59,872 nt of DNA, from sequence record AP012530. One strand, 5' to 3'. The DNA is from Stx2-converting phage Stx2a_F349. Positions 42,001-45,000 of the stretch are shown here, piece after piece. Position numbers: made by a program. The number at the start of each line of letters is the position of its first letter. The first letter of the stretch is position 1.

Positions 42001-45000
42001 GCTGCTGGCCCCGGGATCCGTCAGTGAAATGCAGGACTATATTCCGGAAAACCGCTGTTACCGTGCAACCCTGGAGTTTCAGGTCACGGTGTAATTTTTT
42101 CAACAGAACCCATAACCCGCCGCGTGCGGGTTTTTTATTATCAGGAGGCAGAATGTCTGCTTTGTATGAACGTTCACAGCTGACGCAGGTGATGATTTCA
42201 TCTGCCCCGGCGACTGCTGAAACCATGGAGAAGGCGGAATATCTGCGCCTGGACTGCACCATCAAGGAAGTCCAGTTCACCGCCGGTCAGAAACAGGATA
42301 TTGATGTGACCACGCTCTGCTCCACAGAGCAGGAGAACATCAACGGTCTGGGGGCGTCGTCCGAGATTTCCATGTCGGGTAATTTTTATCTGAATCAGGC
42401 CCAGAACGCCCTGCGTGATGCCTATGACAATGACACGGTGTATGCGTTTAAGGTGCAGTTTCCGTCCGGTAAGGGCTTTAAGTTCCTGGCGGAAGTGCGT
42501 CAGCACACCTGGTCATCCGGTACCAACGGCGTGGTGGCTGCAACGTTTTCACTTCGCCTGAAGGGTAAACCGGTGTCCTATGTGGTACCGCTGGCGTTTG
42601 TGAAAAATCTGGAGAAGACACTTACCGTGAATACCGGTGCGCTGCTGACAATGTCAGTCAGTGTCAACGGGGGAACGCCGCCTTATAAACACGCCTGGAA
42701 GAAGGATGGTCAGCCGGTAGAGGGACAGACTACTGACACTTTCAGTAAAGCCAATACGCAGTCAGGTGATAAGGGGGCTTATACCTGCGAGGTAACGGAT
42801 TCTGCAGAACAGCCGCAGAGCATTACCTCTGATGCGTGTACAGTAACGGTTAATGGTGCGGGCGGATAAGGCTTATGGCAAAAGATCTGAAAACACTGGC
42901 GCTGGCCAGACTGTCGGGGTTCCGTCATAAAACGGTGAAGGTGCCGGAATGGAGAAATGTCAGCGTGGTGCTGCGGGAGCCTTCGGCAGAGGCCTGGTAT
43001 CTGTGGCAGGAAGTGCTCAATGGTGATGGAGAGGATGACGATACCCTGTCGGTGGTGGCGAAAACCCGCCGTAACCTGGAAGCGGATGTGACGCTGTTCT
43101 GCGATGTCCTGTGTGATACTGACCTGCAACGGGTGTTCACTCCGGACGACCGTGAGCAGGTGCTGGCCGTCTATGGTCCGGTACATGCCCGGTTGCTGCG
43201 TCAGGCACTGGAACTGATCGCTGATGCAGAGTCGGCCAGAAAAAAGTAGCCCGCCCGGAAATTCGCTTTCTGATGCGACTTGCGCTCCGTCTGGGGCGCA
43301 CCTTATCCGAACTGCGCCACAGCCTGAGTGCGAGCGAGGCGATGATGTGGATGGAGTTCGACAGGGTATCCCCGCTGGGTGATGAGCGCGGGGATATCCG
43401 TAATGCACAGATCGTGAAAGCGGTTTTCGGGGCACAGGGGATGAATGTTGCACTGAAGGACGCCATGCTCTGCTGGGGCGAGGATGAGGATAAGCCGGAG
43501 GTGGATCCGTTTGCGGCGCTGGAAGACGCGCTGAGCCTTGCAGCAATGTCATAAATAATGATGAAAACCTGCTGTGGCAGGTTTTTTTTGCCCGGAGAAA
43601 GGTGAATGGCGACGTTACGTGAACTGATTATCAAAATTTCGGCAAATTCGCAGTCATTCCAGTCGGAGATCCAGCGGGCTTCCCGTATGGGCAGTGAATA
43701 TTACCGGACCCTGCAGAATGGCGGGCGTCAGGCCGCTGCGGCAGCCCGGGAGCAGCGACGTGCCCTGGCAGAACTGAACAGCCAGTTGACGGAAATCCGC
43801 GCTTCGGCTGTCGGAATGGCTGGCGCATTTGCCGGTGCCTTTGCCACCGGACACCTGATTTCACTGGCTGATGAGTGGAGTTCCGTGAATGCCCGTCTGA
43901 AACAGGCGTCGCAGTCATCTGATGAATTTTCGTCATCACAGAAAGTGCTGATGGATATCAGTCAGCGGACAGGTACCGCTTTTTCGGATAATGCGGCCCT
44001 GTTTGCCCGCTCGGCAGCCTCAATGCGTGAATATGGTTACAGTGCTGATGATGTGCTGAAGGTGACGGAGGCCATTTCCACGGGGCTGAAAATCTCCGGT
44101 GCCAGTACGGCTGAGGCGGGTTCGGTGATCACCCAGTTCAGCCAGGCGCTGGCACAGGGTGTGTTGCGCGGTGAGGAATTTAATTCGGTCAATGAAAGTG
44201 GTGACCGGATCGTACGTGCACTGGCTGCGGGTATGGGCGTGGCCCGTAAAGATCTGAAGGCGATGGCGGACGATGGTCAACTGACGGCGGATAAAGTCGT
44301 TCCTGCGTTAATCAGCCAGCTGGAGGTATTGCGTGATGAATACGCGGCCATGCCGGAAACGGTCTCTGACGGGATCACAAAGGTGGAAAACGCCTTTATG
44401 GCCTGGGTGGGTGGTGCGAATGAGGCCAGCGGGGTGACGAAAACGCTCTCCGGCGTGCTGAACGGTGTTGCCGGACAGATTGATAATGTGGCAACAGCCG
44501 TGGGGGCACTGGTTGCCGTCGGGGTTGCCCGGTACTTTGGCAATATGGCCTCCGGAGCGATGTCTGCCACGGCAGGACTTGTGACGGCTGCACGTAATGA
44601 AGTTGCACTGGCGGAAGCACAGTTCAGGGGAACGCAGATTGCCACGGCGCGGGCAAGAGCAGCCGTGTACCGTGCTCAGCAGGCCGTGGCGGCAGCCCGC
44701 GGGACGGAGATGCAGATTGCTGCAGAAGCCCGTCTGGCGGCCACACAGGAACGCCTGAACAGAAATATTGCTGCCAGAAGCGCCGCCCAGAATGCGCTGA
44801 ACAGTACAACGGCGGTGGGCTCACGTCTGATGAGCGGTGCGCTGGGGCTGGTTGGTGGCGTACCCGGACTGGTGATGCTGGGGGCTGCAGCATGGTACAC
44901 GCTGTACCAGAATCAGGAGCAGGCCAGGGAGTCTGCGCGCCAGTATGCACTGACGATAGATGAAATCGCGCATAAAACGCCGTCAATGTCTTTGCCTGAA

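What the first reader, a model, noticed from the sequence alone, without database searches (positions are those of the whole stretch)
43235..43275. Programmed -1 frameshift site for the tail chaperone G/GT pair
G ends ...AGA AAA AAG TAG. The heptamer A_AAA_AAG is a classic slippery site and the -1 frame stays open for 102 codons to 43554, giving a GT fusion as in lambda.
Basis: partly seen in the sequence, partly recalled or inferred. Interest (0 to 1): 0.35.

Follow-up and report, generated by a model that had tools for sequence, protein, structure and literature searches.

The report
Known tail-chaperone G/GT frameshift site
This is a real but ordinary programmed -1 ribosomal frameshift site that makes the G and GT tail assembly chaperones of a Shiga-toxin prophage, and this exact sequence was already measured at about 7% frameshifting in a 2013 study.

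Summary
ORF G (42875-43249, 124 aa) ends AGA AAA AAG TAG. The heptamer A_AAA_AAG (43240-43246) is in X_XXY_YYZ phase, and the -1 frame stays open for 102 codons from 43246 to the stop at 43552-43554.

G is a full-length Phage_TAC_1 protein and a homologue of HK97 gp13 (PDB 2ob9). The -1 part is a Phage_tail_T domain. The pair lies between the major tail gene and the tape measure gene.

In 253 of 253 related loci, T is in the -1 frame of G. An in-phase A_AAG-containing shift site sits at the same aligned Lys-Lys position.

The 75 nt at 43220-43294 are identical to a cassette tested by Antonov et al. 2013 (NAR, Table S2), which gave 7% +/- 0.79 frameshifting in an E. coli reporter. I found no conserved downstream RNA structure and no upstream SD-like stimulator.

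Two things differ from lambda. G belongs to the HK97 family rather than the lambda gpG family, and the heptamer is the dnaX type placed directly against the stop codon.

Databases still annotate G and a 93-aa T separately, and the 226-aa fusion is absent from them. Verdict: already known, low interest; its main value is correcting the annotation.

The parts
42153..42869 (+). Major tail subunit gene, with a C-terminal Ig-like domain. It is the upstream neighbour of G.
   Evidence: RefSeq annotation mapped from L001. Pfam Phage_tail_2, Phage_TTP_11 and Ig_2 hits, and phrog_158 major tail protein at E 3e-118.
42875..43249 (+). Gene G: tail assembly chaperone of 124 aa, the zero-frame product, ending AGA AAA AAG TAG.
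   Evidence: PF06222 Phage_TAC_1 matched 1-124 of 124, E 2.3e-61. phrog_344 tail assembly chaperone. PDB 2ob9 'Tail assembly chaperone' at E 1.8e-46. The HK97 gp13 sequence falls in the same Pfam family.
43240..43246 (+). Slippery heptamer A_AAA_AAG in X_XXY_YYZ phase, immediately followed by the zero-frame stop TAG (43247-43249).
   Evidence: The heptamer was identical in 94 of 94 close relatives, plus one variant that differs only upstream of it. The same heptamer sits at the aligned Lys-Lys position in relatives at 31-67% identity. It lies inside the 75-nt cassette that gave 7% frameshifting.
43246..43554 (+). The -1 frame extension (T part): 102 codons plus stop. It is translated only as the C-terminal part of the 226-aa GT fusion.
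   Evidence: PF06223 Phage_tail_T at E 5.9e-19, and phrog_337 matched from residue 4. phrog_14766, a 224-position profile, covers G at 1-122 and T at 125-222. There is no ATG, GTG or TTG in this frame between 43225 and 43273.
43273..43275 (+). ATG that databases use as the start of a separate 93-aa 'tail assembly protein T'. It is most likely an internal Met of the conserved F-L-M motif rather than a start.
   Evidence: PGAP and GenBank annotation. Anti-SD pairing is -3.5 kcal/mol, at background level and the weakest in the module. The FLM motif and residues upstream of it are conserved in the -1 frame of relatives.
43220..43294 (+). 75-nt stretch identical to the 'Phage_TAC' frameshift cassette 15618692 that was tested experimentally.
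   Evidence: The string match was located at 43220-43294. Antonov et al. 2013, Suppl. Table S2, reports 7% +/- 0.79.
43606..46848 (+). Tape measure protein gene (1080 aa), the downstream neighbour and presumed binding partner of G and GT.
   Evidence: PF06120 Phage_HK97_TLTM at E 7e-90, plus TMP_3, Tape_meas_lam_C and phrog_339.

Best explanation
This is the programmed -1 ribosomal frameshift site of the tail assembly chaperone pair of an HK97-type siphovirus tail module. The module sits in a Stx2-converting, phage 1717-like prophage of E. coli O157:H7.

Most ribosomes translate G (124 aa) and terminate at TAG 43247. A minority, about 7% in a reporter, slip back one base. This happens when the two tRNA-Lys are on AAA_AAG of A_AAA_AAG (43240-43246) and re-pair on AAA_AAA. 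Those ribosomes then read GTA GCC CGC... in the -1 frame up to 43554. The result is a 226-aa GT protein with junction ...SARKK-VARPEIRFLM...

By analogy with lambda, G and the G part of GT coat the tape measure protein, while the T domain recruits the major tail protein. The fixed slip frequency sets a high G:GT ratio, and neither protein ends up in the virion.

Shown here: the anatomy, the family membership, the conservation, and identity to a tested cassette. Inferred: the role in tail assembly, and that slippage is ribosomal rather than transcriptional.
For: Anatomy: the heptamer is in phase, the -1 frame is open for 102 codons, and that frame has no start codon before 43273.

Families: G is PF06222 over its full length, T is PF06223, and phrog_14766 spans both parts as one protein. 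G matches PDB 2ob9 at E 1.8e-46.

Synteny: the order is major tail, G, T, tape measure, M, L.

Annotated precedent: HK97 gp14 is annotated 'translated due to a -1 frameshift', and HK446 and Bcep176 carry joined CDS.

Conservation: T is in the -1 frame of G in 253 of 253 loci. All 66 distinct junction types carry, inside the overlap and in phase, either a heptamer (A_AAA_AAG, AAA, AAC or G_GGA_AAG) or at least A_AAG. The site falls at the aligned KK position of G.

Independent initiation looks unlikely: the T ATG has background-level anti-SD pairing of -3.5 kcal/mol, against -5.8 to -12.8 for neighbouring genes.

Coding signal: over 25 codons after the site, the -1 frame shows 219 synonymous and 194 non-synonymous differing codon pairs, against 77 and 388 in the zero frame.

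Experiment: window 43220-43294 equals the cassette that gave 7% +/- 0.79 -1 frameshifting in E. coli.

Lambda G/GT function and the shiftiness of A_AAA_AAG with the single E. coli tRNA-Lys are described in Atkins et al. 2016.
Against: There is no direct evidence from phage-infected or induced cells for the 226-aa product of this prophage.

The reporter assay cannot separate ribosomal from transcriptional slippage.

The coding signal in the 9 linker codons between the slip site and ATG 43273 is only modest: differences by codon position are 76, 88 and 104.

A separately initiated 93-aa T is what all examined database records annotate. Low-level re-initiation 24 nt after the G stop is not excluded.
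Confidence: 0.93

Rival explanations
1. T is a separate gene. Its 93-aa product starts at ATG 43273, either by independent initiation or by termination-reinitiation after the G stop, as current annotations state. Under this reading the heptamer is incidental.
For: PGAP and GenBank records annotate it this way. The 93-aa sequence is on at least 1000 contigs in protein collections, while the fusion is absent. The ATG lies only 24 nt after the G stop, so some reinitiation is conceivable.
Against: Anti-SD pairing upstream of the ATG is at background level: -3.5 kcal/mol, and 42% of all ATGs do as well or better.

The ATG is the Met of a conserved internal F-L-M motif. Profile matches (phrog_337 from residue 4, phrog_14766 from residue 2) and conserved residues (V-A/K-x-P...F-L-M) extend upstream of it, where no start codon exists.

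The -1 frame relation holds in 253 of 253 loci, with a shift site at the same aligned position. The cassette does frameshift at 7%. In lambda the T frame is expressed as the GT fusion.
Confidence: 0.04
2. The GT fusion is made by transcriptional slippage. RNA polymerase adds one extra A in the A-run, giving an mRNA that encodes the same GT protein without any ribosomal slippage.
For: An inserted A in AGAAAAAAG gives the same ...KKVARP... product. Neither reporter assays nor mass spectrometry can tell the two routes apart. Poly-A runs are known slippage sites.
Against: The run is only 6 A (43240-43245). Productive transcriptional realignment is described for runs longer than 7 A.

Homologues use G_GGA_AAG or a bare A_AAG at the same position, and these have no homopolymer run long enough. 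A_AAA_AAG is the classic ribosomal shift site in E. coli because of its single tRNA-Lys.
Confidence: 0.03

Closest known systems
HK97 gp13/gp14 tail assembly chaperone pair (Pfam Phage_TAC_1 plus Phage_tail_T; PDB 2ob9)
   Same: The G family is the same (PF06222; about 63% identity in the HK446 alignment, whose junction is identical to HK97's; PDB 2ob9 at E 1.8e-46). The T family is the same. The position between the major tail and tape measure genes is the same. T is in the -1 frame, and HK97's record annotates the -1 frameshift.
   Different: HK97 has CGG_GAA_AAG, a non-canonical heptamer, five codons before the G stop. It also has a moron (gp15) between T and the tape measure gene. The window has canonical A_AAA_AAG directly at the stop and no moron there.
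Phage lambda G/GT programmed -1 frameshift (Levin, Hendrix and Casjens 1993; Xu, Hendrix and Duda 2004, 2013, 2014)
   Same: The gene order V-G-T-H is the same. A low-efficiency -1 slip occurs near the 3' end of G. The T domain is in the same Pfam family (PF06223). No strong stimulatory structure is needed. The presumed role in tape measure and major tail assembly is the same.
   Different: Lambda G is PF06894 (Phage_TAC_2), with no detectable pairwise similarity to the window's G. The two T parts give no BLASTP alignment. Lambda's heptamer is G_GGA_AAG, six codons before the stop.
E. coli dnaX tau/gamma frameshift
   Same: The slippery heptamer A_AAA_AAG is identical and the tRNA-Lys mechanism is the same.
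   Different: dnaX reaches about 50% with an upstream SD-like element and a downstream hairpin. Here neither is present and the measured efficiency is 7%. In dnaX the shifted frame terminates almost at once, whereas here it adds a 102-aa domain.

Membership tests
Conserved G/GT tail assembly chaperone frameshift of long-tailed phages (Xu, Hendrix and Duda 2004) | Two overlapping ORFs lie between the major tail protein gene and the tape measure gene. | tested here: met
   The major tail gene is 42153-42869, G is 42875-43249, T runs to 43554, and the tape measure gene is 43606-46848.
Conserved G/GT tail assembly chaperone frameshift of long-tailed phages (Xu, Hendrix and Duda 2004) | The downstream ORF is in the -1 frame, and its conserved part extends upstream of any usable start codon or RBS. 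| tested here: met
   The -1 frame is open from 43225. There is no ATG, GTG or TTG before 43273. The SD at 43273 is at background level. Profile matches begin at residues 2-4 of the -1 segment.
Conserved G/GT tail assembly chaperone frameshift of long-tailed phages (Xu, Hendrix and Duda 2004) | An in-phase slippery sequence (X_XXY_YYZ) lies within the overlap near the 3' end of G. | tested here: met
   A_AAA_AAG at 43240-43246, directly before TAG.
Conserved G/GT tail assembly chaperone frameshift of long-tailed phages (Xu, Hendrix and Duda 2004) | The frame relation and the shift site are conserved among diverged homologues. | tested here: met
   T is in the -1 frame in 253 of 253 loci. All 66 junction types carry an in-phase A_AAG-containing or related site at the aligned position.
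Conserved G/GT tail assembly chaperone frameshift of long-tailed phages (Xu, Hendrix and Duda 2004) | The frameshift product has been demonstrated experimentally. | tested here: met
The identical 75-nt cassette gave 7% +/- 0.79 in an E. coli GST-MBP reporter (identity checked). It has not been shown in the phage itself.
Conserved G/GT tail assembly chaperone frameshift of long-tailed phages (Xu, Hendrix and Duda 2004) | Both G and GT are required for tail assembly in a fixed ratio and are absent from virions. | not testable with these tools
   Known for lambda. It would need genetics and biochemistry on this prophage.
Pfam PF06222 Phage_TAC_1 (HK97 gp13-like chaperone) | The score is above the gathering threshold over the full profile. 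| tested here: met
   205.6 bits against a cut-off of 25, with profile positions 1-124 of 124 matched.
Pfam PF06223 Phage_tail_T | The score is above the gathering threshold. | tested here: met
   68.7 bits against a cut-off of 25.9, with profile positions 1-70 of 73 matched. Lambda T hits the same family.
Pfam PF06894 Phage_TAC_2 (lambda gpG family) | The sequence or profile matches lambda gpG. | tested here: not met
   The window's G has no PF06894 hit. BLASTP against lambda G gives E 6.5. G is therefore analogous to lambda G, not a member of its family.
dnaX-type stimulated -1 frameshift | An upstream SD-like stimulator and a downstream stem-loop flank A_AAA_AAG. | tested here: not met
   Upstream anti-SD pairing is -3.0 kcal/mol, at background level. 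Downstream folds have z-scores of -1.6 and -0.8. RNAalifold finds no consensus pairs in 10 homologues.

The most novel reading that the evidence does not exclude
The zero-frame stop codon placed immediately 3' of the heptamer (A_AAA_AAG_UAG) may act as a functional 'shifty stop' element. It would tune the G:GT ratio, and in relatives that keep only GCA_AAG_UAA it would replace the first half of the heptamer. Possibly, post-termination reinitiation at ATG 43273 adds a third product, free T. Several clades place the stop directly after the shift site. However, the G_GGA_AAG_CCG_TAA cassette gives a similar 6%, so any effect is probably small.
Probability: 0.15. Interest if true: 0.3.

Novelty: already known. 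Interest (0 to 1): 0.1.

Why it matters
The mechanism is textbook phage biology and this very sequence has already been assayed, so there is nothing new mechanistically.

The practical value is for annotation. The site occurs in prophages of about 1246 of 5426 complete E. coli genomes. There, and in the phage records examined, T is annotated as a free-standing 93-aa protein. The 226-aa GT fusion, which is the likely real product, is absent from a 15-billion-protein collection.

Annotating the ribosomal slippage would correct the proteome of Stx-converting prophages. It would also give proteomics searches the correct target sequence.

Tried and rejected
1. Downstream stimulatory RNA structure. 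Folds of 43247-43340 and 43200-43300 are not significantly more stable than shuffles (z -1.6 and -0.8). RNAalifold on 10 diverse junctions gives no consensus pair. The GC-rich hairpin at about 43281-43298 is roughly 35 nt downstream and is explained by the conserved ALRLGR codons. Rejected as a stimulator.

2. Upstream SD-like stimulator, as in dnaX. Pairing is at background level and is not conserved in relatives. Rejected.

3. 'Open -1 frame after each gene's stop' as a chance statistic. It is uninformative, because adjacent genes often overlap in that frame. I used the in-phase heptamer table instead.

4. First viral-contig scan. It returned only relatives at 98-100% identity with an identical junction, so it carried no information on conservation. 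I repeated the scan with distant homologues as the lead sequence.

5. NCBIfam. No model matches G or T.

6. Xu et al. 2004 could not be read because it is not held. What I say about it rests on citations and on general knowledge.

7. A literature search for the frameshift specifically in Stx phages found nothing relevant.

Full report
**Observation.** ORF G runs from ATG 42875 to TAG 43247-43249 and encodes 124 aa ending ...AESARKK, with final codons GCC AGA AAA AAG TAG. The heptamer A_AAA_AAG occupies 43240-43246 in the X_XXY_YYZ phase needed for a tandem -1 slip. The -1 frame is open from 43225 to the stop at 43552-43554, which is 102 sense codons counted from G-43246. The conceptual fusion is 226 aa with junction ...SARKK|VARPEIRFLMRLALRLGRTL....

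**Is it more than chance?** The string AAAAAAG occurs 22 times in the window on both strands, against about 12 expected. Among 36 other in-phase slippery heptamers inside long ORFs of the window, the -1 frame after the site closes after a median of about 8 codons and at most 88. None of them sits at the 3' end of its ORF. The -1 frame product is also a significant protein domain, as described next.

**What the two ORFs are.** G matches Pfam PF06222 (Phage_TAC_1) over the whole profile, E 2.3e-61. The -1 frame segment matches PF06223 (Phage_tail_T), E 5.9e-19. In PHROGs, G is phrog_344 (tail assembly chaperone) and the -1 segment is phrog_337. The 224-position profile phrog_14766 aligns to G at 1-122 and to the -1 segment at 125-222, so it models the two parts as one continuous protein. 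G is also a sequence homologue of the solved 'tail assembly chaperone' 2ob9, E 1.8e-46, and HK97 gp13 falls in the same Pfam family.

The neighbours are those expected. An Ig-domain major tail subunit lies upstream at 42153-42869. A 1080-aa tape measure protein with the HK97-type domain lies downstream at 43606-46848. Homologues of minor tail proteins M, L and K follow.

**Source of the window.** The window is essentially the Stx2-converting phage 1717 genome. Identity is 99.9% over 24 kb, including ISEc8 and IS629, and 99.9% over the tail segment. The G/T segment is present at 90% identity or more in 1246 of 5426 complete E. coli genomes.

**Annotation status.** In the RefSeq chromosome and the two phage records I opened, G and T are separate CDS, with T starting at ATG 43273 (93 aa) and no ribosomal-slippage join. 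The exact 226-aa fusion is absent from a collection of about 15 billion proteins, whereas G and the 93-aa T are each on at least 1000 contigs. By contrast, HK97 gp14 is annotated 'translated due to a -1 frameshift', and HK446 and Bcep176 carry joined CDS.

**Comparative evidence.** I gathered 254 loci with G homologues at 31-100% identity from annotated phages and from three scans of viral contigs. I located G and T in each with profile HMMs built from ten curated pairs.
- T was found in 253 loci, and in all 253 it lies in the -1 frame of G.
- There are 66 distinct junction sequences.
- The window's arrangement, A_AAA_AAG followed at once by the stop, recurs in relatives at 53-67% identity. 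These include Escherichia phage PhiR49_2, Morganella phage IME1369_02 and several metagenomic contigs.
- The Burkholderia and Bordetella clade (31-33%) has A_AAA_AAG 8-11 codons before the G stop.
- Other clades have A_AAA_AAA, A_AAA_AAC or G_GGA_AAG.
- Two clades keep only an in-phase A_AAG: GCA_AAG_TAA in Klebsiella prophages and CGG_GAA_AAG in HK97 and HK446.

In the G protein alignment these sites all fall at the same conserved ...A(K/R)KK position. The 94 close relatives have a junction identical to the window's, which adds nothing beyond identity.

**Does T have its own start?**
- The -1 frame contains no ATG, GTG or TTG between its opening at 43225 and ATG 43273.
- The anti-SD pairing upstream of that ATG is -3.5 kcal/mol. 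This is at the background median (-3.1), and 42% of all ATGs are as good or better. It is also the weakest of the structural genes checked, which range from -5.8 to -12.8.
- The ATG is the Met of an F-L-M motif conserved in all relatives, and the -1 frame peptide upstream of it is recognisably conserved (V-A/K-x-P-x-x-x-F-L-M, with synonymous changes in the Pro codon).
- Over the first 25 codons after the slip site, substitutions between eight relatives are concentrated at the third position of the -1 frame. There are 219 synonymous and 194 non-synonymous differing codon pairs in the -1 frame, against 77 and 388 in the zero frame.
- Over the 9 linker codons alone the signal is only modest, with 76, 88 and 104 differences at codon positions 1, 2 and 3.

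**Stimulators.** I found none.
- Folds of the region downstream of, or around, the site are not significantly more stable than shuffled controls (z -1.6 and -0.8).
- RNAalifold on ten diverse junctions predicts no conserved pair.
- The 22 nt upstream pair with the anti-SD no better than background (-3.0 kcal/mol).

The site therefore resembles lambda's unstimulated, low-efficiency shift rather than dnaX, which uses the same heptamer but reaches about 50% with an SD-like element and a hairpin.

**Prior experimental evidence.** Antonov, Coakley, Atkins, Baranov and Borodovsky (NAR 2013, PMC3711429) predicted a 'phage tail assembly chaperone' cluster of 41 frameshifted genes similar to an HK97 protein and tested two of them in an E. 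coli GST-MBP reporter. [quoted passage not shown] This string is identical to window 43220-43294. The second cassette, of the G_GGA_AAG_CCG_TAA type seen in HK542-like phages, gave 6%. The finding is therefore a known kind of element, and this exact sequence has already been measured.

**Mechanism.**
- Shown: the anatomy of the site, and a -1 shift at 7% in a reporter.
- Established knowledge: E. coli has one tRNA-Lys (mnm5s2U34) that pairs better with AAA than with AAG, which makes A_AAG, and especially A_AAA_AAG, highly shift-prone.
- Inferred by homology and analogy with lambda: G and the G part of GT bind the tape measure protein. The T domain binds the major tail protein and nucleates its polymerisation. 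The slip frequency fixes the G:GT ratio, and neither protein is in the virion.

**Rivals.** A free-standing T initiated at 43273 is what databases say, but it is contradicted by the start and SD analysis, the conservation upstream of the ATG, the universal -1 relation and the reporter result. I give it about 4% as the main route, although a minor reinitiation product is not excluded. Transcriptional slippage would give the same protein. However, the run is only 6 A, and homologues use sites with no homopolymer run at the same position. I give it about 3%.

**Comparison with known systems.** The closest system is HK97 gp13/gp14, with the same G and T families and the same synteny. It differs in having a non-canonical shift site five codons before the stop and a moron after T. 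Lambda G/GT is the functional paradigm, but lambda G belongs to a different Pfam family (PF06894) with no pairwise similarity to the window's G. The T parts are related only at profile level, and lambda's heptamer is G_GGA_AAG six codons before the stop. 'As in lambda' is therefore right for mechanism and role and loose for family membership.

**Verdict.** The element is already known and was experimentally assayed in 2013. Interest is low. The residual value is that public annotation of this very common prophage module still lacks the GT fusion.

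Noticed in passing
window 39569-40161 (inside ORF 39404-40627): A 162-bp tandem repeat of 3.7 copies with 97% matches gives 54-aa protein repeats in a 407-aa ORF. 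The ORF lies between the portal gene and the head-tail connector genes.
   Followed up: no
window 42114-42132 and 43564-43585: Terminator-like GC hairpins followed by T-runs bracket the block of major tail, G and T genes. One lies just upstream of the major tail gene and one between the T stop and the tape measure start. HK97 and HK446 records annotate putative terminators at equivalent positions.
   Followed up: partly
window 47897-49492: The tail gene order M-L-K is interrupted between L (47182-47880) and K (49546-50283). The insert holds a minus-strand 114-aa ORF and plus-strand ORFs of 57 and 348 aa, and it looks like a moron insertion.
   Followed up: no
L005 and L013 (HK446, HK97) around locus positions 770-787 and 1340-1359; L007 and L174 (Klebsiella prophages) at the G stop: Some relatives lack a canonical in-phase heptamer. 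The HK97 clade has CGG_GAA_AAG, where P-site re-pairing would be imperfect. A large Klebsiella clade has only GCA_AAG_TAA, with an ATG two codons downstream in the T frame, so P-site-only slippage at a stop or reinitiation may operate there.
   Followed up: partly
window 42779-43552, minus strand: A 257-aa antisense ORF spans G and T. There is no evidence that it is a gene, and it is probably a by-product of the codon bias of the sense strand.
   Followed up: no
L002 (NC_011357.1, Stx2 phage 1717) locus 1674-1889: The published phage 1717 record annotates T as only 216 nt, and the GT tblastn match breaks into 4 pieces there. The aligned segment is also 2 nt longer than the window's. This suggests an indel or sequencing difference in that record relative to the window.
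   Followed up: no
window 42875-43554: The exact 226-aa GT fusion is absent from a collection of about 15 billion proteins, while G and the 93-aa T are each on at least 1000 contigs. One cluster member of T is even named 'preprotein translocase subunit SecA', which is a mis-annotation.
   Followed up: yes
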